From Microcystis aeruginosa NIES-843 (GTDB lineage Bacteria; Cyanobacteriota; Cyanobacteriia; Cyanobacteriales; Microcystaceae), in contig NC_010296.1 in the NCBI RefSeq assembly GCF_000010625.1, positions 5,810,796 through 5,842,795 on the forward strand: a DNA stretch of 32,000 nucleotides. The letters are read 5' to 3'. Shown piece by piece: positions 7,039 to 31,912 of the stretch (the first letter of the stretch is position 1; every line of letters starts with the position of its first letter). Both the position numbers and the translations under genes were made by a program. The notes beneath the pieces were generated by a model. That model made no database searches. It was not told the origin of the DNA and saw only the letters and a list, made by a program, of their open reading frames with translations.

Positions 7039-7151
7039 GAAGGTTCTTGTCATCCACTAATAGGTAGGTGAGAACACGAGGTAAACTATAAGCTGGGAGA
7101 TTGTGGTGAAAACTTAAGTAGTCGTGCAAAATTAATTTCCTAGTGAAGATA

Positions 7152-7179
7152 GGCAAGAGGCAAGAGGCAAGAGGCAAGA
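7152..7179. repeat. Tandem heptamer (GGCAAGA)x4
   Basis: Direct reading: ggcaaga ggcaaga ggcaaga ggcaaga gg, located 40 nt upstream of hicB. Confidence 0.9.
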
Positions 7180-7218
7180 GGTGGTTAGATATGTGTAATT
7201 AATTTTGCTTAGGTACTT

Positions 7219-12612: not shown

Positions 12613-12724
12613 AATCCCCCCTTGATCCCCCCTTAATCCCCCCTTGATAAGGGGGGTATCTGACAATTTTTAACACCCACCCACTTAATCACTGACAACT
12701 GATAACCGATAACTGATAACTGAA
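12613..12724. repeat. Composite low-complexity block: (TCCCCCCTTRA)x3 + GGGGGG hairpin partner, then CTGATAAC-type repeats
   Basis: aaatccccccttgatccccccttaatccccccttgataagggggg ... cactgacaactgataaccgataactgataactga. One hairpin arm is tandemly repeated and the other is single. Confidence 0.7.
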
Positions 12725-14161
12725 ATGACCTCTGACCCGTTCCTCGATCGAGCTTGGAATACCGAAGACCTAGAACAAGCGCTTCGAGGTGTCGGCACTA
12801 TTCAAGAAGAACTCAACTATAATCAGGCACGCAATTCTCTGAGCAAACTTGTCGATCGTCTGGATCTTACCTCGATCGAGAAAATTGGTCTAGAAGCGGA
12901 GATTGATCGCCTAGTGGCCCTGCTAGAAAAACTCGATCGATCCCTGATTCAAATTGCCGCTTTTGGCCTGGTGGGCCGGGGAAAATCCTCGATTTTAAAT
13001 GCTCTGGTCGGTCAAGAAATCTTTACAACCGGTCCTCTACACGGAGTTACCCGCACCATTAAAGGGGTAAATTGGCAGTTAAGCAGCGATGATACTTTCC
13101 CTCATCTAGCGCGTCTGACCCTGAACGGCCAGGGTAATGCTCAGGTGCAATTGCTTGATACTCCCGGTATTGATGAGGTAGATGGGCAAACGAGGGAAAT
13201 TCTCGCCTGTCAGGTGGCGCAGCAGGTGGATTTAATCCTTTTTATCATCTCTGGTGATATGACCAAAGTGGAATTTTCCGCCTTGGCCAAGTTACGCGAA
13301 GCAGGAAAACCGATGATTTTGGTCTTTAATAAAATCGATCAGTATCCGGAAGTCGATCGCCTCGCTATCTATGAAAAAATCGCCTCAGAACGGGTGAAAG
13401 AATTACTCTCCCCCGATGAGATTGTTATGGTGGCGGCCTCTCCCCTCCTGGCGGAGACGGTTAAAGGGCAGGATGGTCGGCTAAAAATGCAACGATTTTG
13501 CGGAAAACCACAGATAGAAGCCCTGAAACTCAAAATTTTGGAAATTCTAGAGCGAGAGGGTAAATCGCTGGTAGCACTCAATTCTATGCTGTATGCGGAC
13601 GAGGTAAACGAGCAAATTGTCGCCCGCAAAATGGCTATCCGTGATCGCGGGGCTAATCAATTGATTCAAAAAGCAGTGATGATCAAAGCATCGGCGATCG
13701 CTCTGAATCCGGTGACGGTGTTGGATCTGTTTACGGGGGCAGTTATCGATCTAGCCATGATTCTCGCTCTTTCTCGCTTATACGGCATCGATTTAACTCG
13801 TCAGGGGGCGATCGCTCTTTTACAAAAAATTGCCCTCAATATGGGTGGCATTAGTGCCAGCGAATTTTTAGCGGTTTTGGGTTTAAGTTCCCTAAAAGGA
13901 TTACTCGGTCTCTCGATTCCTGCCACTGGCGGCATTTCTCTCCTTCCCTATACTTCGATCGCCCTGACTCAAGCGGGGGTTGCCGGTGTATCCTGTTACG
14001 CGATCGGCCAAGTGACGAAAACCTATCTCGCTAATGGGGCCACCTGGGGACCCGATGGCCCGAAGGCAGTGGTGGCCAGCATTCTCGATTCCCTCGATGA
14101 AACCTCGATTCTCAACCGGATTAAGCGGGAATTAGGCTCAAAATTGGGGGTTGGGGGTTAG
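12725..14161 (+). CDS. GTP-binding protein with C-terminal DUF697-like membrane domain
   Basis: 478 aa. G1 GLVGRGKSS, G3 DTPGIDE, G4 NKID. The C-terminal ~170 aa are hydrophobic and Gly/Ala-rich, like the YcjF/DUF697 family. Confidence 0.8.
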   Translation: MTSDPFLDRAWNTEDLEQALRGVGTIQEELNYNQARNSLSKLVDRLDLTSIEKIGLEAEIDRLVALLEKLDRSLIQIAAFGLVGRGKSSILNALVGQEIFTTGPLHGVTRTIKGVNWQLSSDDTFPHLARLTLNGQGNAQVQLLDTPGIDEVDGQTREILACQVAQQVDLILFIISGDMTKVEFSALAKLREAGKPMILVFNKIDQYPEVDRLAIYEKIASERVKELLSPDEIVMVAASPLLAETVKGQDGRLKMQRFCGKPQIEALKLKILEILEREGKSLVALNSMLYADEVNEQIVARKMAIRDRGANQLIQKAVMIKASAIALNPVTVLDLFTGAVIDLAMILALSRLYGIDLTRQGAIALLQKIALNMGGISASEFLAVLGLSSLKGLLGLSIPATGGISLLPYTSIALTQAGVAGVSCYAIGQVTKTYLANGATWGPDGPKAVVASILDSLDETSILNRIKRELGSKLGVGG

Positions 14162-14303
14162 GGGAAGTGGGGAAGTGGGGAAGCGGGGAAATTGAACTAA
14201 AACCCCAAAACCCCAAAACCCCAACCTCCAACACCTAAAACCTGTCTCCTATCTCCTGACTCCTAACTCCTAACTCCTAACGGTTGATCACTGATCACTG
14301 ACT
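14161..14303. repeat. Composite intergenic microsatellite block (GGGGAAGT)n-(AAAACCCC)n-(CTCCTAA)n-(TGATCAC)n
   Basis: ggggaagtggggaagtggggaagcgggg aaattgaacta aaaccccaaaaccccaaaacccc ... tctcctatctcctgactcctaactcctaactcctaa cggttgatcactgatcactga. Four GGGG runs at 14161-14188. Confidence 0.85.
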
Positions 14304-20434: not shown

Positions 20435-20791
20435 TTACTGCATTTTTAGCATCCATTCTACTGTGCGTTCATACAGTTCTAAATTACCAGTTTTTATCAA
20501 AGCATTAGCGGCTTTTTGCAAAGAGTTAAGGCTCGCTACTCGGCTACTAGGATTTTTATCATCGTAGGTAGCAAGAGCCAAATTATAATAAGCTTCGCCA
20601 TAATTAGGCTGATAACTAATTGCTAATTGATAATCCGCAATCGCTTCTTTCTTCTCGCCCATTTTTTCCTTAACTAAACCTCGATTATAGTAAGCTTCAG
20701 CATAGTTAGACTGGAGAGAAATAGCCATATTTAAATCCTCCAAAGCACCAGTATTATCTCCCAAATCAAAGCGAATAACTCCTCTTTTTTC
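20435..20791 (-). pseudogene. TPR-repeat protein gene, 5'-truncated by the cassette array
   Basis: TPR consensus repeats (AEAYYNRGLVKEKMGEKKEAIADYQLAISYQPNYGEAYYNLA). There is no ATG: the ORF-track start is TTG at 20764. The frame stays open upstream (..RGVIRFDLGDNTGALEDL, itself mid-TPR) only until it enters cassette sequence at about 20785, with a stop at 20792-20794. Confidence 0.65.
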
Positions 20792-20800
20792 TCAAAACCC

Positions 20801-21133
20801 TTGACAAATGGCGAGACTTGCTTTAGACTTTATGTATAATGGGAATCCGTGCGCAAATATATATATAGTTTTTGAGCAAAGATAAGAGAGAAAAAAATAG
20901 CCTCAAAAATCGGGATGGGTAGGAATAGGGATATAAGGTATGAAGACTGAAATTTTCTCTCCCCGACAAGCATTAAACAAAGCATTCCTGAGTAGGGATA
21001 ATTCATGAATTATCCCTACGGAATTATCCCTACGGAATTATCCCTACGGAATTATCCCTACGGAATTATCCCTACGATAGGAATTGTTGTTACAGTGATT
21101 ATAAAATCGGCTCGATTTTTTTTCTAAAAACCC
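20801..21133 (+). repeat. Cassette 1 (333 bp; palindrome + 14-mer tract 20992-21075, 5 arm copies)
   Basis: TTGACA-N17-TAGACT, leader, ATGAAGACTGAAATT..., TGA, GTAGGGATAATTCatGAATTATCCCTAC + 4x GGAATTATCCCTAC, then aaaatcggctcgatttttttt. It has a 1-nt insertion between the two candidate ATGs relative to the other units. Confidence 0.9.
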
Positions 21134-21451
21134 TTGACAAATGGCGAGACTTGCTTTAGACTTTTTATATAATGGGAATCCGTGCGCAAATATATATAGG
21201 GTTTTTGAGGGAAGATAAGAGAGAAAAAAATAGACTCCAAAACCGGGATGGGTAGGAATAGGGATAAAGGTATGAAGACAGAAAATTTCTCTCCCCGACA
21301 AGCATTAAACAAAGCATTCCTGAGTAGGGATAATTCATGAATTATCCCTACGGAATTATCCCTACGGAATTATCCCTACGGAATTATCCCTACGATAGGA
21401 ATTGTTGTTACAGTGATTATAAAATCGGCTCGATTTTTTTTCTAAAAACCC
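21134..21451 (+). repeat. Cassette 2 (318 bp; palindrome + 14-mer tract 21324-21393, 4 arm copies)
   Basis: Same organisation. Variant leader ...gggtttttgagggaagataag... is shared only with cassette 3. Confidence 0.9.
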
Positions 21452-21740
21452 TTGACAAATGGCGAGACTTGCTTTAGACTTTTTATATAATGGGAATCCG
21501 TGCGCAAATATATATAGGGTTTTTGAGGGAAGATAAGAGAGAAAAAAATAGACTCCAAAACCGGGATGGGTAGGAATAGGGATAAAGGTATGAAGACAGA
21601 AAATTTCTCTCCCCGACAAGCATTAAACAAAGCATTCCTGAGTAGGGATAATTCATGAATTATCCCTACGGAATTATCCCTACGGAATTATCCCTACGGA
21701 ATTATCCCTACGATAGGAATTGTTGTTACAGTGATTATAA
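21452..21740 (+). repeat. Cassette 3, tail interrupted by RAYT insertion (palindrome + 14-mer tract 21642-21711, 4 arm copies)
   Basis: Identical by eye to cassette 2 up to ...gtgattataaa. There the expected atcggctc is replaced by ~770 bp, and cassette-type sequence resumes at gattttctcaaaaccc (~22512). Confidence 0.85.
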
Positions 21741-22313
21741 ATCCTTTCTACCGAAGCTTTGCCAAAACTGAACTTCCTCCTGACTAGGTTTGACTTGCTG
21801 ATTTTCGATATCTTGATGCCATTTTAAAGGATTATTAACAATATATTCTCTAATTTTCGTTAAGGAAACCTCATCACGGATAATATGTTCATAATAATTC
21901 TTTTGCCAAACCGATTGACCTTGAGTACTCTGCAATTGATTAATCAGTTTAGCACTATTCATTTTAAAATAACCAACCACTTTAGGTAACAACATTTTTC
22001 GCCTTTCCTCTGGTAGAGATAATTCATGAATTATCTCTAATGGGTTATCAATAAATATTATTCCGTGAATATGATTAGGCATAATCACAAATTCATCTAA
22101 AATAACTTCTTTATAACGAGTATCTAAACTATGCCAAATATCCTTAACAACTTGACCAAATTGATTAAGATTCATGACGTTATCTTGTATGTCCCCTAAT
22201 AAATTTTCACTATTTTTAATACAGATTGTCACAAAATATGCAGCCGATTGAGAATAATCATAGTGAGATAATCTTAAGGAACGACGATGGGGTTTATCAG
22301 AAAAGTTATTCAT
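21735..22313 (-). CDS. REP-associated tyrosine transposase-like protein (RAYT / TnpA_REP, HUH-Y1 superfamily)
   Basis: 192 aa. HUH motif MPNHIHGIIFI and catalytic Tyr context WQKNYYEHIIRDE. N-terminal RRSLRLSHYDYSQSAAYFVTICIKN is typical of COG1943/RAYT proteins. The last sense codon and the stop lie in cassette sequence. Confidence 0.8.
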   Translation of the reverse strand: MNNFSDKPHRRSLRLSHYDYSQSAAYFVTICIKNSENLLGDIQDNVMNLNQFGQVVKDIWHSLDTRYKEVILDEFVIMPNHIHGIIFIDNPLEIIHELSLPEERRKMLLPKVVGYFKMNSAKLINQLQSTQGQSVWQKNYYEHIIRDEVSLTKIREYIVNNPLKWHQDIENQQVKPSQEEVQFWQSFGRKDL

Positions 22314-22527
22314 TTATTCATCTCCTTGTCAGGACAATAAATAGGAATCTCATTTTAGTTTTTGGCTATTTAGTAAAATAAGATTAAGCTGAATATAACA
22401 ATAATTGTAACTGCTCGGTCTCGCGTAGCGAGCGCGTTGCGACCGCTTCCTTTAACCTTTCTACCCCTGCAAACTTACTGGCAATTTCCCTCACATCTTG
22501 GGAAGTGGGGAGATTTTCTCAAAACCC

Positions 22528-22873
22528 TTGACAAATGGCGAGACTTGCTTTAGACTTTTTATATAATGGGAATCCGTGCGCAAATATATATATAGTTTTT
22601 GAGCAAAGATAAGAGAGAAAAAAATAGACTCCAAAACCGGGATGGGTAGGAATAGGGATAAAGGGATGAAGACGGAAAATTTCTCTCCCCGACAAGCATT
22701 AAACAAAGCATTCCTGAGTAGGGATAATTCATGAATTATCCCTACGGAATTATCCCTACGGAATTATCCCTACGGAATTATCCCTACGGAATTATCCCTA
22801 CGGAATTATCCCTACGATCTGAATTGTTGTTACGGTGATTATAAAATCGGCTCGATTTTTTTTCTAAAAACCC
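22528..22873 (+). repeat. Cassette 4 (346 bp; palindrome + 14-mer tract 22718-22815, 6 arm copies)
   Basis: Same organisation. Tail variant gatctgaattgttgttacggtg is shared with cassette 5. Confidence 0.9.
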
Positions 22874-23233
22874 TTGACAAATGGCGAGACTTGCTTTAGA
22901 CTTTTTATATAATGGGAATCCGTGCGCAAATATATATATAGTTTTTGAGCAAAGATAAGAGAGAAAAAAATAGACTCCAAAACCGGGATGGGTAGGAATA
23001 GGGATAAAGGTATGAAGACAGAAAATTTCTCTCCCCGACAAGCATTAAACAAAGCATTCCTGAGTAGGGATAATTCATGAATTATCCCTACGGAATTATC
23101 CCTACGGAATTATCCCTACGGAATTATCCCTACGGAATTATCCCTACGGAATTATCCCTACGGAATTATCCCTACGATCTGAATTGTTGTTACGGTGATT
23201 ATAAAATCGGCTCGATTTTTTTTCTCAAAACCC
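22874..23233 (+). repeat. Cassette 5 (360 bp; palindrome + 14-mer tract 23064-23175, 7 arm copies)
   Basis: Same organisation, with the largest 14-mer copy number. Confidence 0.9.
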
Positions 23234-23273
23234 TTGACAAATGGCGAGACTTGCTTTAGACTTTTTATATAAT
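23234..23273 (+). promoter_or_regulatory. Cassette 6 promoter, the one physically attached to the R-M gene: TTGACA-N17-TAGACT plus TATAAT 5 nt further
   Basis: TTGACA 23234-23239, 17-nt spacer, TAGACT 23257-23262, TATAAT 23268-23273. The same hexamers and spacing are conserved in all six cassettes. In the diverged copy at 27300 the -10 is TATACT. Confidence 0.6.
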
Positions 23274-23347
23274 GGGAATCCGTGCGCAAATATATATATA
23301 GTTTTTGAGCAAAGATAAGAGAGAAAAAAATAGACTCCAAAATCGGG

Positions 23348-26300
23348 ATGGGTAGGAATAGGGATAAAGGTATGAAGACAGAAAATTTCTCTCCCCGACA
23401 AGCATTAAACAAAGCATTCCTGAGAGTCAAACCGAATCGTAGTCAGGTGGAGAAGTTTCAAACCCACCTAGAACAACTTTTGGGGAGTATAAACGAGACA
23501 GAATCGGAGGAGTTCCACAAAAACCTGCTTGCAGACTTTCTCAAACACAGCTACTATAGTCCCCAACATTTCATCAACACCAAGGGAAGGAATGATTTAG
23601 TCATCCATAATGGGAAAGAGTCGCGGGATTCCGTGGGGGTAATATTGGAAGTCAAGAAACCCAGCAATAAAAGCGAGATGCTGCGGAGAGACAAACTCAA
23701 CTGTAAAGCATTACAAGAATTACTCCTCTACTTCCTTCGGGAAAGAATAACCGAGAAAAACCTAGAGATAAAACACCTGATTGCTACCAATATATATGAG
23801 TGGTTTATCTTCGATGGGAATATCTTCGAGAGACTATTCGCACAAAATCAGGAACTTGTCAGACAGTTTAATGACTTTGAGACGGGGAGACTAACGGGAA
23901 AAACCACCGACTTCTTCTACAAACAGATAGGGGAACCCTTCCTTAACTCCATACTCAATTCCCTGACATACACCTATTTTGACTTGCGGGAATACACCCA
24001 AACCATCCGGGAGGACGAACATAACCTCATCAGTCTCTATAAAATCTTTTCTCCCGAACACCTGTTAAAACTCCCCTTTGCGAACGATAGCAACAGTCTC
24101 GACAAAAACTTTTATAGTGAACTGCTGCATATCATCGGATTGACAGAGATAAAAGAGGGAGGAAAAAAACTCATCCAACGTCTGCAACCGGCAGCGCGAC
24201 AACCCGGTTCGCTGCTAGAGAACGCTATCAGTCAAGTAGAGAGTTTAGATAAAATCTCTCGTTTACCCAATCCCGAGGAATTTGGGGAGACGGAGGAGGA
24301 GAGACTATTGAATATCGGTTTAGAGTTAGGGATAACCTGGATAAATAGAATCCTCTTCCTCAAACTATTAGAAGCGCAGATAATTAGGTATCATCGGGGG
24401 GATAAATCCCTAGGGTTTCTCAATTTAGGCAAAATTGCCAACTATGACGACTTAAATCGCTTATTTTTCAGCGTCTTAGCAAAAAAACAGTCAGAAAGAA
24501 GCAAAGACATCCAGAATACCCATACTCAGGTTCCCTATCTCAACAGTTCCCTATTTGAACCGACGGAATTAGAACAATCAACCATAGTTATCAGTAACCT
24601 GTGTTCGGAGAATATAGAGATTTTTGCAGGAACAGTCTTAAAGGATAGTCAGGGGAAAAAGCGAACAGGAGAAATCAACGCTCTAGCATACCTATTCGAG
24701 TTTCTCAATGCCTACGATTTTAGCAGCGAAGGTGGGGAAGCGATACAGGAGGATAACAAGACTCTTATCAATGCGTCGGTGTTGGGATTAATCTTCGAGA
24801 AAATCAACGGATATAAGGATGGTTCCTTTTTCACCCCCGGTTTCATCACTATGTATATGTGTCGGGAAACGATTCGACGCGCAGTGATAGAGAAATTTAA
24901 CCAGAGTCAGGGATGGGATTGTCAGACAATCGAGGATGTATATAACCGCATCAAAGATAAAACGGCAGCCAATGCTATTATCAATAGTCTCAAAATTTGT
25001 GATCCTGCGGTGGGTTCGGGACATTTTCTTGTTTCTGCTTTGAACGAGATAATCGCAATTAAGAGTGAGTTACAGATTTTAGTGGATAAAGAGGGGAAAA
25101 CTCTCAGGGATTATCGGGTTGAGGTGGTGAACGATGAGTTAATCGTCACCGATGATGACGGTAATCTGTTTGAGTATAATCCCCGCAACCGAGAAAGTCA
25201 GCGAGTACAGGAGACTTTATTTCAGGAAAAACAGCGTCTGATTGAGGGGTGTCTCTTTGGAGTCGATATCAATCCCAACTCGGTGAAAATCTGTCGGTTG
25301 CGTTTATGGATTGAGTTACTCAAGAATGCTTACTACAAAGCAGATAACGAGTTAGAGACGCTACCGAATATCGATATTAATATCAAGGTTGGCAATTCTC
25401 TGATTAGTCGCTTTGGGTTATCCAATGATTTACAAGTCTTTTCCCGCAAAAATCGTTTAAGTATCGAGAGTTATAAGGATGCGGTGAGAGTCTATCGCAA
25501 CGCGGAGGATAAATCGCAAAAGCGCGAGATGGAGAGATTGATAAGTGAGATTAAGAGTAGTTTTCGTCAGACTTTACAGGGAGATAATCCTCTGAAAAAG
25601 CGCTTGCGGGGTTTGGAAACGGATTTATATAGTCTAGAGAATCAAATTTTGTTATTTGAGGAGTCACCCAAGGAAAAGAAAGCGCGGGAAAGGAAGATTA
25701 GTCAGTTAAGGAATGAGATTGATAAGTTACGTCCGCAACTAGAGGAGATTGAAAGCGGTAAGATTTATCATAATGCTTTTGAATGGCGCTTCGAGTTCCC
25801 CGAAGTTCTAGACGATAAGGGGAATTTTATCGGTTTTGATGTGGTAATTGGCAATCCTCCTTATATTCAATTATCTAAAATAGACTCAACAACAGTTAAA
25901 TACAAGAATTATTTACTAATGCGTTATGAAACATCTGGCGGCAGATTAAATACATTTATTTTTTTCACTCATTTATCATTTCAAATACTAAAACAAAACG
26001 GAATTTTAAGTTATATCATTCCAAACACTATATTAACTCAAGAATATTATGTATTTACACGTCAATTCTTACTCAATAAAGTAACGCTATCAGAGGTTAT
26101 CAATTTTCTGAATTTACCGTTTGAAGACGCAGTAGTAGAAACAGTGATTATTCAATATTTGAAATCACAAAATTTAGATTATGCTGTGAATTATGGTGAG
26201 CTTGCTGAAAGTGGATTTAATTTCAAATTTAATATAAGTTCATCCGAAATAAGAAGCAATATCGGCTATTCATTTTTAGTTCAGCGTAATTCTATTTTGC

Positions 26301-26962
26301 TTAAAGTTTTTGAATCTAAAAATTGTCCGCTTGACGAAATTTGTAATATTAATCAAGCAATAGCCTTGAAGGGAGATAAATCACTATCTTTAAAAACACA
26401 AAACCCTGAAGGGAAATATAAAAAACTTCTTGATGGAAGAAATATAAATAAATACTCAATTAGCTGGGATGGTTTTTATTTAGATTATGATATTACCAAG
26501 ATTCATAGTTGTAAACGCAGAGACATTTTTGAAACAAAAGAAAAACTTTTATTTAGAAGAGTTTCGAGAACGTTAATTTTTACCTACGACAATTCTCAAT
26601 ATTATGCTCTTAATACATTGGTAGTTGTAAATCTAAAAAAAGGGATTAACTTTGATATAAAGTTTCTTCTTGGAATAATGAATTCTTCATTAATGAATTA
26701 TATTTATAACAACAAATTTAAATCAACTAAAACAGTTTTCTCTGAAATTCAAACTCGTTCTATTTCACAGCTTCCAATACCCAAAATTAGTCAAGAACAA
26801 CAGCAACCTATAATTGTACTTGTAGATCAAATTCTCACGGCTAAAAAATCTAATCCCAAAGCTGACACCAGCGAGTTAGAAAAAGAGATTGACAAAATAG
26901 TGTATGAATTGTATGGATTAAGCGAGGAGGAAATCAGGATAATAGAGGGGGAAATAAAATAA
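23348..26962 (+). CDS. Type IIG (Eco57I/MmeI-like) restriction-modification enzyme: N-terminal PD-(D/E)xK-like nuclease, gamma-class N6-adenine methyltransferase, C-terminal target-recognition domain
   Basis: 1204-aa ORF. SAM motif I DPAVGSGHFLV, catalytic motif IV VIGNPPYI (NPPY codons 25853-25864), coiled-coil insertion before NPPY, N-terminal NDLVIHNG...VILEVKKP resembling D...ExK, and a TaqI-like C-terminal specificity region. The true start may be ATG 23372 (MKTENFSPRQ), because cassette 1 has a frameshifting 1-nt insertion between the two ATGs. Confidence 0.88.
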   Translation: MGRNRDKGMKTENFSPRQALNKAFLRVKPNRSQVEKFQTHLEQLLGSINETESEEFHKNLLADFLKHSYYSPQHFINTKGRNDLVIHNGKESRDSVGVILEVKKPSNKSEMLRRDKLNCKALQELLLYFLRERITEKNLEIKHLIATNIYEWFIFDGNIFERLFAQNQELVRQFNDFETGRLTGKTTDFFYKQIGEPFLNSILNSLTYTYFDLREYTQTIREDEHNLISLYKIFSPEHLLKLPFANDSNSLDKNFYSELLHIIGLTEIKEGGKKLIQRLQPAARQPGSLLENAISQVESLDKISRLPNPEEFGETEEERLLNIGLELGITWINRILFLKLLEAQIIRYHRGDKSLGFLNLGKIANYDDLNRLFFSVLAKKQSERSKDIQNTHTQVPYLNSSLFEPTELEQSTIVISNLCSENIEIFAGTVLKDSQGKKRTGEINALAYLFEFLNAYDFSSEGGEAIQEDNKTLINASVLGLIFEKINGYKDGSFFTPGFITMYMCRETIRRAVIEKFNQSQGWDCQTIEDVYNRIKDKTAANAIINSLKICDPAVGSGHFLVSALNEIIAIKSELQILVDKEGKTLRDYRVEVVNDELIVTDDDGNLFEYNPRNRESQRVQETLFQEKQRLIEGCLFGVDINPNSVKICRLRLWIELLKNAYYKADNELETLPNIDINIKVGNSLISRFGLSNDLQVFSRKNRLSIESYKDAVRVYRNAEDKSQKREMERLISEIKSSFRQTLQGDNPLKKRLRGLETDLYSLENQILLFEESPKEKKARERKISQLRNEIDKLRPQLEEIESGKIYHNAFEWRFEFPEVLDDKGNFIGFDVVIGNPPYIQLSKIDSTTVKYKNYLLMRYETSGGRLNTFIFFTHLSFQILKQNGILSYIIPNTILTQEYYVFTRQFLLNKVTLSEVINFLNLPFEDAVVETVIIQYLKSQNLDYAVNYGELAESGFNFKFNISSSEIRSNIGYSFLVQRNSILLKVFESKNCPLDEICNINQAIALKGDKSLSLKTQNPEGKYKKLLDGRNINKYSISWDGFYLDYDITKIHSCKRRDIFETKEKLLFRRVSRTLIFTYDNSQYYALNTLVVVNLKKGINFDIKFLLGIMNSSLMNYIYNNKFKSTKTVFSEIQTRSISQLPIPKISQEQQQPIIVLVDQILTAKKSNPKADTSELEKEIDKIVYELYGLSEEEIRIIEGEIK

Positions 26963-27487: not shown

Positions 27488-27895
27488 TTACGACGGCTTT
27501 TCCTGATTTTTGATGTAGCACTTAAGAACTTCCAGTGGCGCACCTCCTACAGAAGATACAAAATAACTGGGCGACCAAAGAGCGTCTTTCCCGTATGGCT
27601 TAGGATATCCAGCTTGTCCATACCTACGACTAGAGACTCCTTTTAAAGAATTGACCATTACAGAAATAGATAGTTTCGGCGGGTATTCAATCAATGCGTG
27701 TACATGATCGGACTCCCCGTTAAATTCCAATATCTGAAAATTCATCTTTTCCGCAACTTCCCTAAAAGACTTTTCAATCAAAGTCAGACTTTTACCAGTA
27801 AAAACCTTACTTCTGTATTTTGTCACACAGACCAAGTGTATCTTTAGATCGGAAACAGAGTTTCTTTCTTTTCGCAACTGACTTGACATTATCAA
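27488..27895 (-). CDS. tnpA: IS200/IS605-family Y1 (HUH) transposase TnpA
   Basis: 135 aa. HUH motif DHVHALIEY and catalytic Tyr context WSPSYFVSSVGG. Confidence 0.9.
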   Translation of the reverse strand: MIMSSQLRKERNSVSDLKIHLVCVTKYRSKVFTGKSLTLIEKSFREVAEKMNFQILEFNGESDHVHALIEYPPKLSISVMVNSLKGVSSRRYGQAGYPKPYGKDALWSPSYFVSSVGGAPLEVLKCYIKNQEKPS

Positions 27896-27939
27896 CAGAC
27901 CTAGTTAGAATAGACTACAGACACACACATCTTAACCCA

Positions 27940-29184
27940 ATGAAAGCGAGGTATCAATACCGTATTTACCCAACAGACCAACAAAAGAGGCTTTTGTCTC
28001 AGTTGTTCGGGTGTGTGCGTGTTGTCTGGAACGATACCTTAGCTTACTGTCAAGAACTTTATCGACAAGGGGAGAAAAAGCCAAAATATACAGAGTTATC
28101 TAAAAGACTAACTCAAGTCAAAAAAACAGAAGAAAGACGGTGGTTAACCGAGGTCTCTTCTATTCCTTTACAACAGTCTTTGAGAGACTTAGAGACTGCT
28201 TACTCTAACTTCTTTACATCTTGTAAGGGCGAGAGAAAAGGAAAGAAAGTCAAACCTCCCAAGTTTAAAAAACGTAAATCTAAACAATCAGCAAGATTTA
28301 CCGACAATGGTTTTACCGTTAACCAACACTGCGTTACTTTAGCAAAAATCGGTGATTTAAGAATCGTTTGGAGTCGTCCATTACCTTCTAAACCTTCTAG
28401 TGTCACCGTGATTAAAGATGCAGCAGATCGCTATTTTCTTAGTTTTGTCGTCGAGGTTCAGCCCGAAATACTTCCTAATAACGGGGAGTCCGTGGGAATC
28501 GATCTAGGGATTGCTACCTTTGCTACCCTCTCAACAGGGGAAAAGATAGACGCACCGAAACCGTTAAAGAAACGATTAAAACGACTAAGAAAAGCACAGA
28601 AAAACCTTTCTAGAAAACAGAAAGGAAGTAACCGACGGGAAAAAGCTAGGAAACGAGTAGCTAAAATCCATGCAAAGATTAAAGACACTCGCACTGATTT
28701 CTTGCATAAACTATCCACTAGAGTTGTTCGTGAAAATCAAACGATAATTTTAGAGGATTTAAACACATCGGGAATGGTTAAAAATCGTAAGTTATCCCGT
28801 GCCATATCAGACTTAGGATGGCGTTCTTTCCGAGATATGCTATCGGCAAAATCTGATAAATATGGGCGTGATTTTCGGATAATTTCCCGATGGGAGCCAA
28901 CGTCTCAAAGGTGTTCCTGTTGTGGGAATATCGGCGGGAAAAAAGCGTTAAATATCCGTGAGTGGGAATGTCTTTTCTGTGGGACTTTTCATGATAGGGA
29001 TGTAAACGCTGCAATTAATATCAAGGTCGCCGGTGGGCAATCGGAGACCTCAAAAAACGGACGTGGAGGAAAGTGTAAGACTACCGATAAGGTAGCAGCA
29101 TCCTGTGAAGCGTCAACCCAGCGGTCGGTCGTTCAATTAAGTTTGTTTGATCTGCCGGGAATCACCGTCCGGCCCCGGCGGTGA
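27940..29184 (+). CDS. tnpB: RNA-guided endonuclease TnpB
   Basis: Starts MKARYQYRIYPT at ATG 27940; the ORF-track start at 27820 overlaps tnpA. RuvC-I SVGIDLGIATF, RuvC-II IILEDLNTSG, zinc finger CSCCGN...CLFCGT, RuvC-III DRDVNAAINI. Confidence 0.9.
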   Translation: MKARYQYRIYPTDQQKRLLSQLFGCVRVVWNDTLAYCQELYRQGEKKPKYTELSKRLTQVKKTEERRWLTEVSSIPLQQSLRDLETAYSNFFTSCKGERKGKKVKPPKFKKRKSKQSARFTDNGFTVNQHCVTLAKIGDLRIVWSRPLPSKPSSVTVIKDAADRYFLSFVVEVQPEILPNNGESVGIDLGIATFATLSTGEKIDAPKPLKKRLKRLRKAQKNLSRKQKGSNRREKARKRVAKIHAKIKDTRTDFLHKLSTRVVRENQTIILEDLNTSGMVKNRKLSRAISDLGWRSFRDMLSAKSDKYGRDFRIISRWEPTSQRCSCCGNIGGKKALNIREWECLFCGTFHDRDVNAAINIKVAGGQSETSKNGRGGKCKTTDKVAASCEASTQRSVVQLSLFDLPGITVRPRR

Positions 29185-31775: not shown

Positions 31776-31912
31776 AGGGAAGTGGGGTGTGGGAAGTGGG
31801 GTGTGGGGAAGTGGGGAGGTGGGGAAGTGGGGAAGTGGGGAGGTGGGGAAGTGGGGGAATTTCAACTAAAACCCTAAAACCCTAAAACCCCAACCCCTCA
31901 CTGATTACTGAT
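31776..31912. repeat. Composite intergenic microsatellite block (GGGGAAGT/GGGGTGT/GGGGAGGT)n-(AAAACCCT)n-CTGATTACTGATG
   Basis: gggaagtggggtgtgggaagtggggtgtggggaagtggggaggtggggaagtggggaagtggggaggtggggaagtggggg aatttcaacta aaaccctaaaaccctaaaacccc ... ctgattactgatg. More than ten GGGG runs. Confidence 0.85.

What the first reader, a model, noticed from the sequence alone, without database searches (positions are those of the whole stretch)
21642..22745. A RAYT-type HUH transposase gene sits inside the array, and the cassette tails look like its REP substrates
Seen:
- ORF 21735-22313 (-) has the HUH motif (HIHGII) and the NYYEHII Tyr motif of REP-associated tyrosine transposases.
- It is inserted in the tail of cassette 3. 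The cassette reads ...gtgattataaa, then ~770 bp of foreign sequence replace the expected atcggctc, then gattttctcaaaaccc resumes.
- Every cassette tail starts with GTAGGGATAATTC-at-GAATTATCCCTAC, a perfect palindrome with 13-nt arms that begins GTAG and ends CTAC. It is followed by tandem extra right arms (GGAATTATCCCTAC).
- The RAYT gene is bracketed by such clusters. One ends at 21711, 24 nt from its stop. The next starts at 22718.

Established knowledge: enterobacterial and pseudomonad REPs are GTAG-headed imperfect palindromes. RAYT genes are characteristically flanked by their cognate REPs or REPINs, which they cleave and rejoin as ssDNA hairpins.

Inference: these palindrome/14-mer tracts are the REP equivalents of this RAYT. 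RAYT nicking plus replication slippage may have driven both the 14-mer expansion and the cassette amplification. A REP/RAYT module physically fused to the promoter region of a defence gene would be unusual.
Basis: partly seen in the sequence, partly recalled or inferred. Interest (0 to 1): 0.75.

Follow-up and report, generated by a model that had tools for sequence, protein, structure and literature searches.

The report
REP transposase beside a restriction gene
The gene is an intact member of a known class of domesticated hairpin-cutting transposases (RAYT/TnpA_REP, subclass 2.4), sitting with its own palindromic repeats upstream of a restriction enzyme gene in Microcystis. This is ordinary for its class, but relatives of this gene turn out to lie inside restriction-modification loci unexpectedly often.

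Summary
ORF 21735-22313(-) is an intact Y1 HUH protein. Every cassette tail starts with the perfect 28-nt palindrome GTAGGGATAATTCATGAATTATCCCTAC, followed by 3-6 tandem 14-mers.

The protein fits TnpA_REP subclass 2.4 (Bertels Group 4) on every published signature. These are NHIH, WQ, YIVNNP, about 194 aa, "double-foot" GTAG...CTAC REPs flanking the gene, and one REP in frame inside it (22013-22040). This class is already described (PMC6006769).

The palindrome is very probably its cognate REP. The Stanieria orthologue is flanked on both sides by the identical 28-mer. In 80 metagenomic homologues, internal and flanking palindromes co-vary locus by locus.

Two parts of the interpretation do not hold:
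- The RAYT was not inserted into cassette 3. The tail is its own 3' flank. The short cassettes still carry its last codons, so they are RAYT-deleted derivatives of a 1.08-kb unit.
- The palindrome was not found dispersed in Microcystis. It occurs at one locus per genome.

RAYT-driven amplification is untested; unequal recombination is enough to explain the array.

A new lead: 14 of 76 homologue loci, and 5 of 10 homologues looked up individually, lie inside restriction-modification operons.

The parts
21735..22313 (-). RAYT / TnpA_REP gene, subclass 2.4 (192 aa). Motifs: HUH H81/H83; W136-Q137..E142-H143..R146; Tyr motif Y157-IVNNP.
   Evidence: dN/dS is 0.23 against the M. novacekii copy.
22013..22040 (.). 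REP copy in frame inside the RAYT gene (GTAGAGATAATTCATGAATTATCTCTAA, encoding LEIIHELSLP, residues 92-101). It differs from the flanking REP by a compensated G:C to A:T pair.
   Evidence: This is the low-pLDDT loop between the HUH strand and the next helix. It is a known trait of subclass 2.4.
21642..21712 (.). REP cluster at the 3' flank of the RAYT: the double-foot palindrome 21642-21669 plus three further tandem 14-nt half-REPs.
21713..21741 (-). Tail GATAGGAATTGTTGTTACAGTGATTATAAA. It is the RAYT's native 3' flank and overlaps its stop codon and last two codons.
   Evidence: It accompanies the RAYT in all strains. The C-terminus ...GRKDL* is conserved in homologues.
22314..22508 (-). RAYT 5' flank (presumed promoter region). 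It contains a 24-nt GC-rich insert at 22424-22447 that is a separate small dispersed repeat.
20992..21076 (.). REP cluster of cassette 1 (palindrome plus 4 half-REPs).
21324..21394 (.). REP cluster of cassette 2 (palindrome plus 3 half-REPs).
22718..22816 (.). REP cluster of cassette 4 (palindrome plus 5 half-REPs).
23064..23176 (.). REP cluster of cassette 5 (palindrome plus 6 half-REPs).
20782..23424 (+). Array of six copies of the RM gene's promoter, 5'UTR and first codons. Copies start at 20782, 21115, 21433, 22509, 22855 and 23215. Each ends at ...TTCCTGA joined to GTAG of a REP, except the last, which continues into the RM gene.
23348..26962 (+). Type IIG restriction-modification enzyme gene (DUF7149, DUF7814, Eco57I methylase, TaqI_C). 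The probable true start is the ATG at 23372.
   Evidence: 1196-aa product in L006.

Best explanation
This is a REPtron. It comprises an intact, selectively maintained RAYT (TnpA_REP) of subclass 2.4 / Bertels Group 4 together with its cognate 'double-foot' REP, GTAG-GGATAATTC-AT-GAATTATCC-CTAC.

As is typical for the subclass, one REP sits in frame inside the gene, in a loop after the HUH strand, and REPs lie next to the gene. Here they form a cluster 23 nt beyond the stop codon.

Inferred by analogy with E. coli TnpA_REP: the protein binds the REP hairpin in single-stranded DNA, reads the GTAG foot with its conserved W-Q..E-H..R residues, and cuts and rejoins DNA with HUH-bound metal and Tyr157.

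The extra 14-mers are half-REPs (GTAG foot plus one stem arm). They were multiplied by slippage on the hairpin-prone tract, or possibly by RAYT cutting and rejoining.

The RAYT lies divergently upstream of a type IIG restriction-modification gene. A 1.08-kb unit was duplicated in tandem. It consists of the RM promoter and first codons, the REP cluster, the RAYT and the RAYT's 5' flank. Loss of the RAYT from some units gave the 318-360-bp short cassettes. Unequal recombination between the roughly 210-bp promoter copies then varied their number. The RAYT was therefore not inserted into a pre-existing array; the array grew around it.

Shown: family membership, gene integrity, REP identity by comparative evidence, architecture across strains. 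Inferred: catalytic mechanism, order of events, recombination as the driver of amplification.
For: Family:
- NHIH, WQ, YIVNNP and 192 aa match the published subclass 2.4 signature.
- NCBIfam gives REP_Tyr 61 bits against IS200 21 bits. The window's true IS200 TnpA gives 28 against 128.
- The AF2 model (pLDDT 85) has E. coli TnpA_REP 4ER8 as best fold hit, ahead of the IS200/IS605 TnpAs by only about 2-fold in E-value.
- The W-Q..E-H..R and Y..NP residues align with 4ER8.

Functional gene:
- The protein is identical in 226 sample blocks.
- dN/dS is 0.23 against M. novacekii.

Cognate REP:
- The Stanieria PCC 7437 orthologue (60% identity) has the identical 28-mer 17 nt upstream and 42 nt downstream.
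- A Nitrospiraceae homologue (56% identity) has it upstream and inside the CDS at the same position.
- A 62%-identical homologue (L118; its host is probably also Microcystis, inferred only from contig length) and the Nostocales homologues carry their own palindrome variants on both sides and inside.
- Of 80 metagenomic homologues, 58 have an internal palindrome. In 23 of the 29 with both internal and flanking copies, the cores agree within 2 mismatches, against 16% for cross-locus pairs.
- The Microcystis internal copy differs from the flanking one by a compensated base pair.

Array history:
- RAYT-tail-REP-(5'CDS)-(promoter) is constant in 10 Microcystis loci.
- L006 has two RAYT-bearing units in tandem and no short cassette.
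- 14-mer counts vary from 2 to 9, and cassette counts vary between strains.
- Short cassettes keep GATTT(T)ATAA, the RAYT's last codons K-D-L-stop, which are conserved in distant homologues.
- Half-REP tandem arrays recur in other homologue loci, for example L134 (period 14, downstream of the gene).
Against: - In Microcystis the palindrome core was found at only one locus per genome, including a complete 4.9-Mb chromosome. The defining 'repetitive, dispersed' property of REPs is therefore not met in this host.
- The score for NCBI's REP_Tyr_transpos equivalog model is below its cut-off (61 against 80).
- No biochemical data exist for any subclass 2.4 protein, so the cleavage site and activity are inferred.
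- The 5-nt filler (GGCTC) at the deletion joint of the short cassettes is unexplained.
- The leftmost promoter copy next to the TPR gene is not accounted for by a single simple duplication.
- The genome scan missed a known positive (Stanieria), so its negatives are soft.
Confidence: 0.75

Rival explanations
1. RAYT-catalysed amplification. Cutting at the REP foot and strand transfer by the RAYT created the join between the RM 5' coding sequence and the REP, multiplied the 14-mers, and built the cassette array.
For: - Every cassette junction lies exactly at the REP foot (..TTCCTGA|GTAG).
- M. novacekii has a second, different junction between the RM 5' copy and a REP (L047 7385).
- The same REP plus flanking DNA is tandemly reiterated in an unrelated Chloroflexota genome (216 bp x 3).
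- REP clusters reiterated with flanking DNA are described in the literature.
- Half-REP arrays recur in the family.
Against: - All junctions within and between strains are identical. That fits one ancestral event followed by homologous unequal crossing-over between 210-bp repeats.
- Perfectly identical 14-mers with strain-variable number are what plain slippage gives.
- No excision or strand-transfer footprint can be read from sequence.
- No activity has been shown for this subclass.
Confidence: 0.2
2. An autonomous IS200/IS605-type insertion sequence carrying its own TnpA landed in cassette 3 of a pre-existing array.
For: - The 770 bp interrupt an otherwise regular cassette.
- The protein has the Y1 HUH fold shared with IS200 TnpA.
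- Microcystis is rich in IS elements, and a real IS605 lies 5 kb away.
Against: - The IS200 model score is 21 bits (cut-off 55), against 128 for the true IS200 TnpA in the window.
- The same position next to the RM gene is found in all strains, with one locus type per genome.
- There are no distinct subterminal hairpins at both ends. The only GC-rich hairpin in the 5' flank is a separate 24-nt insert, absent in M. novacekii and present elsewhere.
- The short cassettes retain RAYT codons.
Confidence: 0.04
3. The palindrome is a regulatory element of the restriction gene (operator, terminator or mRNA stabiliser), unrelated to the RAYT.
For: - It lies between repeated RM promoters.
- In Balneola the same palindrome forms the tip of terminator-like hairpins flanked by A and T runs.
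- REPs are known to act as RNA elements.
Against: - The same 28-mer flanks the Stanieria orthologue, where there is no RM gene.
- The palindrome co-varies with the RAYT's internal copy across the family.
- No terminator-like site was detected in 20700-23500.
- A regulatory side-effect is not excluded, but it cannot explain the association with the RAYT.
Confidence: 0.05

Closest known systems
TnpA_REP subclass 2.4 of Quentin et al. 2018 (PMC6006769) = RAYT Group 4 of Bertels et al. 2017 (PMC5581495)
   Same: - HuH motif NH[IFV]H, WQ, Y motif YIxNNP, about 194 aa.
- Abundant in Cyanobacteria.
- Long REPs with three G-C pairs at the stem bottom, and 'double-foot' GT[AG]G...C[TC]AC REPs.
[quoted passage not shown]
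- Variable insert with short repeats.
- Low copy number per genome.
   Different: - Here the REPs are confined to the REPtron locus.
- Only the 3' side has an adjacent cluster.
- The REP is extended by perfect tandem half-REPs.
- The whole unit is tandemly amplified together with the 5' end of a type IIG RM gene.
E. coli REPtron: TnpA_REP (YafM) with REP/BIME, PDB 4ER8
   Same: - Y1 HUH fold.
- GTAG-footed hairpin substrate.
- Conserved W-Q..E-H..R guide-recognition residues and Y..NP motif.
- Single-copy domesticated gene flanked by its REPs.
   Different: - Only about 16% identity.
- E. coli REPs are imperfect, bulged, present in hundreds of dispersed copies, and not inside the gene.
- The E. 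coli protein belongs to subclass 2.2, with DHLH and WE motifs.
IS200/IS605 TnpA (IS608, ISDra2)
   Same: Same fold and HUH/Tyr chemistry on single-stranded hairpins.
   Different: - IS elements are multicopy with distinct left-end and right-end hairpins, often with TnpB.
- The focal ORF scores far below the IS200 model and occupies one conserved locus.
REPIN-RAYT systems of Pseudomonas (Bertels and Rainey 2011, PMC3116915)
   Same: A single RAYT associated with GTAG palindromes. A double-foot REP may be a collapsed inverted REP pair, as suggested in PMC6006769.
   Different: REPINs are inverted REP doublets present in tens to hundreds of dispersed copies. Here there are single perfect palindromes with tandem half-units at one locus.

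Membership tests
TnpA_REP subclass 2.4 / RAYT Group 4 | HuH motif NH[IFV]H | tested here: met
   N80-H81-I82-H83. N79, H80 and H82 in alignment numbering are invariant or nearly so in 29 homologues.
TnpA_REP subclass 2.4 / RAYT Group 4 | W motif WQ and Y motif YIxNNP | tested here: met
   W136-Q137 and Y157-IVNNP, conserved in the family alignment.
TnpA_REP subclass 2.4 / RAYT Group 4 | Variable insertion between the HuH strand (beta3) and helix alphaC that carries an in-frame REP | tested here: met
   Palindrome at 22013-22040 encodes residues 92-101. Low-pLDDT loop between strand 80-87 and helix 107-127. 58 of 80 homologues have one.
TnpA_REP subclass 2.4 / RAYT Group 4 | Canonical or double-foot REP with a 5' GT[AG]G foot within 1 kb of the gene | tested here: met
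   GTAG...CTAC palindromes 23 nt downstream of the stop and 405 nt upstream of the start.
TnpA_REP subclass 2.4 / RAYT Group 4 | Placement in that clade in a phylogeny with the published reference sequences | not tested
Placement rests on motif signatures, HMM scores and the fold match.
NCBIfam NF047646 REP_Tyr_transpos (equivalog) | Score at or above the curated cut-off (80 bits) | tested here: not met
   61.2 bits. Homologues P0012, P0026 and P0087 also score 61-66, so the whole subclass falls below this model's cut-off.
REP (repetitive extragenic palindrome) | GTAG-footed palindrome able to form a stable hairpin | tested here: met
   12 nested pairs in the fold of the 13-nt-arm palindrome, -9.2 kcal/mol, z = -6.3.
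REP (repetitive extragenic palindrome) | Many dispersed copies in the host genome | tested here: not met
   One locus per Microcystis genome at exact 20-nt core, and none elsewhere in the 32-kb window. It is dispersed in other genomes (Symploca 7 stretches; Tolypothrix, Crocosphaera and Chloroflexota 4 each). The scan is not exhaustive, because Stanieria was missed.
REP (repetitive extragenic palindrome) | Bound and cleaved by its RAYT | not testable with these tools
   Needs purified protein and single-stranded oligonucleotides.
REPIN | Two REPs in inverted orientation forming a longer hairpin, as the replicating unit | tested here: not met
   Single perfect palindromes followed by direct tandem half-units.
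IS200/IS605 insertion sequence | TnpA matching the IS200 model; multiple copies; distinct subterminal hairpins at both ends | tested here: not met
   IS200 model 21 bits against a cut-off of 55. One locus type. No end hairpins of its own.

The most novel reading that the evidence does not exclude
Subclass 2.4 RAYTs are not randomly placed domesticated transposases. They are functionally tied to restriction-modification and other defence loci. They typically sit in the same orientation between the hsdR and hsdM/hsdS genes of type I systems, or next to type IIG enzymes. The RAYT-REP module may recombine, amplify, mobilise or tune these loci, and the Microcystis promoter/REP array would be a footprint of that activity. 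This would give RAYTs, whose host function is an open question, a concrete biological context.
Probability: 0.25. Interest if true: 0.7.

Novelty: new member of a known kind. Interest (0 to 1): 0.4.

Why it matters
As found, this is a textbook-like example of an already described class, and it mainly corrects the reading of the locus: the array grew around the RAYT, not the reverse. It is useful in two ways.

First, it is a natural system in which a RAYT, its REP, half-REP expansions and kilobase-scale tandem amplification vary between closely related strains. RAYT-dependent instability could therefore be measured directly.

Second, the neighbourhood survey it prompted suggests that this RAYT subclass is strongly enriched inside restriction-modification operons. 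I found no paper reporting this. If it holds in a systematic analysis, it would point to what these domesticated transposases are for.

Tried and rejected
- **Rfam, whole window:** no RNA family.
- **Literature search for the palindrome sequence:** no paper.
- **GC-rich hairpin in the RAYT 5' flank as the RAYT's own end structure:** rejected. It is a 24-nt insert absent in M. novacekii and present at two unrelated sites in L002. Folding of the whole flank is unremarkable (z = -1.4 and -2.1).
- **Short-cassette linker ATCGGCTCG as a piece of the RM coding sequence:** not found in the RM gene.
- **L009 as evidence of RAYT transposition to a new site:** rejected. The locus carries a remnant of the RM gene 5' end, so it is a rearranged copy of the same locus.
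- **Assembly artefact:** rejected. The same architecture, with different copy numbers, appears in independent assemblies, including a complete chromosome.
- **Genome-wide count:** only an exact-core scan of one representative genome per species was possible. It missed Stanieria PCC 7437, a known positive, so absence elsewhere in Microcystis is provisional.
- **8-nt TTCCTGAG as microhomology for the first duplication:** it is shared by the RM coding sequence at the junction and by the flank of the same REP in Floridaenema (L069). This was seen post hoc and is kept only as a lead.
Full report
**1. What is in the sequence**

The window comes from a Microcystis genome. The 192-aa product of ORF 21735-22313(-) is encoded identically in M. 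viridis NIES-102 and in many other Microcystis assemblies and bloom metagenomes (226 sample blocks).

The ORF has the HUH motif at N80-H81-I-H83. It passes Pfam Y1_Tnp at 31 bits against a cut-off of 23.

The arm GTAGGGATAATTC (one mismatch allowed) occurs 32 times, against 0.09 expected. All copies lie in 20992-23175, except one inside the ORF.

Six copies of a roughly 210-bp segment start at 20782, 21115, 21433, 22509, 22855 and 23215. This segment is the promoter-like region (TTGACA-17-TAGACT), the 5'UTR and the first codons of the downstream 1204-aa gene.

That gene is a type IIG restriction-modification enzyme with DUF7149, DUF7814, Eco57I methylase and TaqI_C domains.

In the first five copies, the coding sequence stops at ...TTCCTGA. 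It is joined there to the perfect 28-nt palindrome GTAGGGATAATTCATGAATTATCCCTAC. After the palindrome come 4, 3, 3, 5 and 6 perfect GGAATTATCCCTAC units and a 29-nt tail.

In the third copy, 770 bp containing the ORF lie between the tail and the next copy. The exception is the 'NYYEHII Tyr motif', which is really part of the W-Q..E-H..R stretch. The catalytic-type Tyr motif is Y157-IVNNP.

**2. What the protein is**

- NCBIfam scores it 61 bits on REP_Tyr_transpos and 21 bits on IS200.
- The genuine IS200 TnpA of an IS605 element 5 kb away (27488-27895) scores the reverse, 28 and 128.
- The only PDB sequence hit is E. coli TnpA_REP, 4ER8. Its W-Q, E-H, R and Y..NP residues align.
- An AlphaFold model built on 29 homologues (pLDDT 85, pTM 0.81) has 4ER8 as its best fold match. 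The IS608 and ISDra2 transposases follow closely, within about 2-fold in E-value, so the fold result alone does not separate RAYTs from IS200 TnpAs.
- Comparison with the M. novacekii copy gives dN/dS of 0.23, so the gene is under purifying selection.

Quentin et al. 2018 (PMC6006769) define TnpA_REP subclass 2.4, equal to Group 4 of Bertels et al. 2017, by these features:
- HuH motif NH[IFV]H, WQ and YIxNNP;
- mean length 194 aa;
- abundance in Cyanobacteria;
- long REPs with three G-C pairs at the stem bottom, or 'double-foot' REPs (GT[AG]G...C[TC]AC);

The Microcystis protein and its palindromes meet every one of these features.

The in-gene copy is at 22013-22040 and encodes LEIIHELSLP, residues 92-101. 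It falls in the one low-confidence loop of the model. It differs from the flanking REP by a compensated G:C to A:T change. In M. novacekii it keeps both feet (GTAGAGATAATTCATGAATTATCTCTAC).

**3. Is the palindrome this RAYT's REP?**

Comparative evidence says yes.

- The Stanieria cyanosphaera PCC 7437 orthologue (60% identity) has the identical 28-mer 17 nt before its start and 42 nt after its stop.
- A Nitrospiraceae homologue (56% identity) has the 28-mer upstream and inside its coding sequence at the same position.
- Another homologue (P0009, 62% identity) is flanked on both sides by its own variant, GGGACAATTCATGAATTGTCCC. I judge its host to be Microcystis only from contig length (5,874,184 against 5,874,197 bp).
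- Nostocales homologues carry further variants.

I also examined 80 metagenomic homologues at 36-55% identity:

| Measure | Result |
|---|---|
| Perfect internal palindrome | 58 of 80 |
| Palindrome within 300 nt of the gene | 42 of 80 |
| Both internal and flanking copies | 29 of 80 |
| Cores agreeing within 2 of 16 positions, same locus | 23 of 29 |
| Cores agreeing within 2 of 16 positions, cross-locus pairs | 16% |

The peptide encoded by the palindrome also shows the expected coupled changes: VGAIHELPL, VGTIHELSL and VGIIHELSL.

Tandem half-REP arrays like the 14-mers recur in five of the 80 loci. One of them lies downstream of the gene with period 14.

**4.

(a) *Dispersal.* I scanned one genome per species for GGGATAATTC-N(0-8)-GAATTATCCC. 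This returned 107 stretches.
- In Microcystis the hits fall at one locus per genome. That includes a single 8-kb stretch in the complete M. ichthyoblabe chromosome.
- The exact 28-mer is dispersed in other genomes and phyla: Symploca in 7 stretches; Tolypothrix, Crocosphaera and a Chloroflexota MAG in 4 each; also Balneola, Floridaenema and Sphingobacteriales.
- In those genomes it is often nested inside longer site-specific palindromes, as described for cyanobacterial REPs.
- The scan missed Stanieria, so its negatives are provisional.

(b) *Insertion.* The evidence points to the opposite order of events.
- In all ten Microcystis loci the order RAYT-tail-REP cluster-5'CDS copy-promoter copy is constant.
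- L006 has two complete RAYT-bearing units in tandem and no short cassette.
- 14-mer numbers range from 2 to 9, and cassette numbers differ by strain.
- The RAYT stop and last codons (GAT TTA TAA, for ...GRKDL*, conserved in distant homologues) lie in the 'tail'.
- The short cassettes still read GATTTTATAA at that place.

The short cassettes are therefore RAYT-deleted derivatives of the 1.08-kb unit.

L009 is a rearranged remnant of the same locus, not a transposition. In M. ichthyoblabe the RAYT is lost and one REP remains.

(c) *Mechanism of amplification.* All junctions are identical, and the repeats share about 210 bp of homology. One founding event followed by unequal crossing-over and slippage therefore suffices. 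RAYT involvement remains possible, given a second distinct REP junction in M. novacekii and the REP-plus-flank arrays elsewhere. It cannot be tested from sequence.

**5. An unexpected pattern**

The position next to a defence gene is not unusual for this subclass.

Among the 121 nearest ORFs of the 80 metagenomic homologues, the commonest Pfam families are Methylase_S (8), N6_Mtase (4), HSDR_N (4), Eco57I (4) and MmeI_Mtase (3). PADLOC gives Specificity_I 9 and MTase_I 7.

Fourteen of 76 loci have an RM gene as immediate neighbour. It is on the same strand, mostly within about 15-165 nt and in three cases about 350 nt away. The arrangements are:
- hsdS-RAYT-hsdR;
- hsdM-RAYT-hsdS;
- type IIG-RAYT.

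These RAYTs are only 42-80% identical to each other, so they are not one clade.

As a control I took 142 random ORFs from the other genome stretches fetched here. No RM family had more than one member. Fisher p is about 1e-5 to 6e-5.

An independent sample of ten homologues, looked up one by one, gave these contexts:

| Context | Homologues |
|---|---|
| Type I RM operon | P0018; P0026 (Cylindrospermum PCC 7417, hsdR-RAYT-hsdM-Uma2-hsdS); P0025; P0087; P0101 |
| NurA-RAYT-SIR2-HerA | P0075 |
| Next to a toxin-antitoxin cluster | P0078 |
| No defence gene nearby | P0009, P0012, P0072 |

I found no paper reporting this. It may only reflect defence islands acting as sinks for mobile DNA. However, the operon-like placement suggests more than that.

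**6. Verdict**

The finding is real, and its core interpretation (a RAYT with cognate REPs) is right. It is a new member of an already described kind. The claims of insertion and of RAYT-driven amplification are, respectively, contradicted and untested. The most interesting outcome is the side observation that this RAYT subclass is enriched in restriction-modification loci.

Noticed in passing
L120-L199, L119, L201, L203, L205, L207, L208 (RAYT homologue loci): Subclass 2.4 RAYT genes are strongly enriched inside or beside restriction-modification operons. Arrangements seen are type I hsdR-RAYT-hsdM-hsdS and hsdS-RAYT-hsdR, and type IIG. One case is NurA-RAYT-SIR2-HerA. Counts are 14 of 76 metagenomic loci and 5 of 10 individually looked-up homologues, against at most 3 of 142 control ORFs.
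   Followed up: partly
window 22424-22447; L002 12986-13008 and 14162-14184: A 24-30-nt GC-rich element (GGTCTCGCGTAGCGAGCGCGTTGCGACC) sits in the RAYT 5' flank. It is absent from the same place in M. novacekii (L012) and present at two unrelated sites in L002. It looks like a separate tiny dispersed or inserted repeat.
   Followed up: partly
window 27488-29184: A separate IS605-type element. It has a genuine IS200 TnpA (27488-27895, minus strand; 128 bits on the IS200 model) overlapping divergently with a TnpB (27820-29184; OrfB_IS605 and Cas12f1-like TNB domains). It served as an internal control.
   Followed up: partly
L013, L060, L061, L064, L065, L074 (Balneola); L029, L051, L056, L078, L116 (Symploca) and others: The identical 28-nt REP occurs across phyla, nested at the centre of longer palindromes that differ from site to site. 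In Balneola these look like bidirectional terminators with flanking A and T runs. In several cyanobacteria the outer inverted repeat is AGGACTTACGCA...TGCGTAAGTCCT.
   Followed up: no
L086 2958-3598 (Chloroflexota MAG): The same REP plus 190 bp of flanking DNA is repeated three times in tandem (period 216, 99% identical), downstream of a prolyl-tRNA synthetase gene. This parallels the Microcystis cassette array.
   Followed up: no
window 23350-23370 and equivalent positions in every cassette: The RM 5'UTR reads GGTAGGAATAGGGATAAAGG and shares the 9-mer TAGGGATAA with the REP arm. It could be a degenerate old half-REP or chance.
   Followed up: no
window 21635-21642 and L069 6719-6756 (Floridaenema): The 8 nt TTCCTGAG at the RM-CDS/REP junction also flank the same REP, as an extended palindrome, in Floridaenema. 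This may be microhomology used in the founding duplication, or coincidence.
   Followed up: no
L006 10001-11655; L109 1500-1930: Strain differences at the locus. One M. aeruginosa assembly has two complete RAYT units in tandem. M. ichthyoblabe has lost the RAYT, with the tail fused to the 3' end of another gene and a single REP left.
   Followed up: partly
L200 (Stanieria PCC 7437): The genome contigs pattern scan did not report Stanieria PCC 7437, although its chromosome holds two exact matches. Negative results of that scan should be treated as soft.
   Followed up: no
window 7151-7181, 12614-12723, 14161-14281, 31777-31890: Several short tandem repeat tracts with 7-, 8-, 11- and 14-nt units (for example GGGAAGTG x 10 at 31777-31856) lie in intergenic regions of the window. 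They resemble cyanobacterial short tandem repeats.
   Followed up: no
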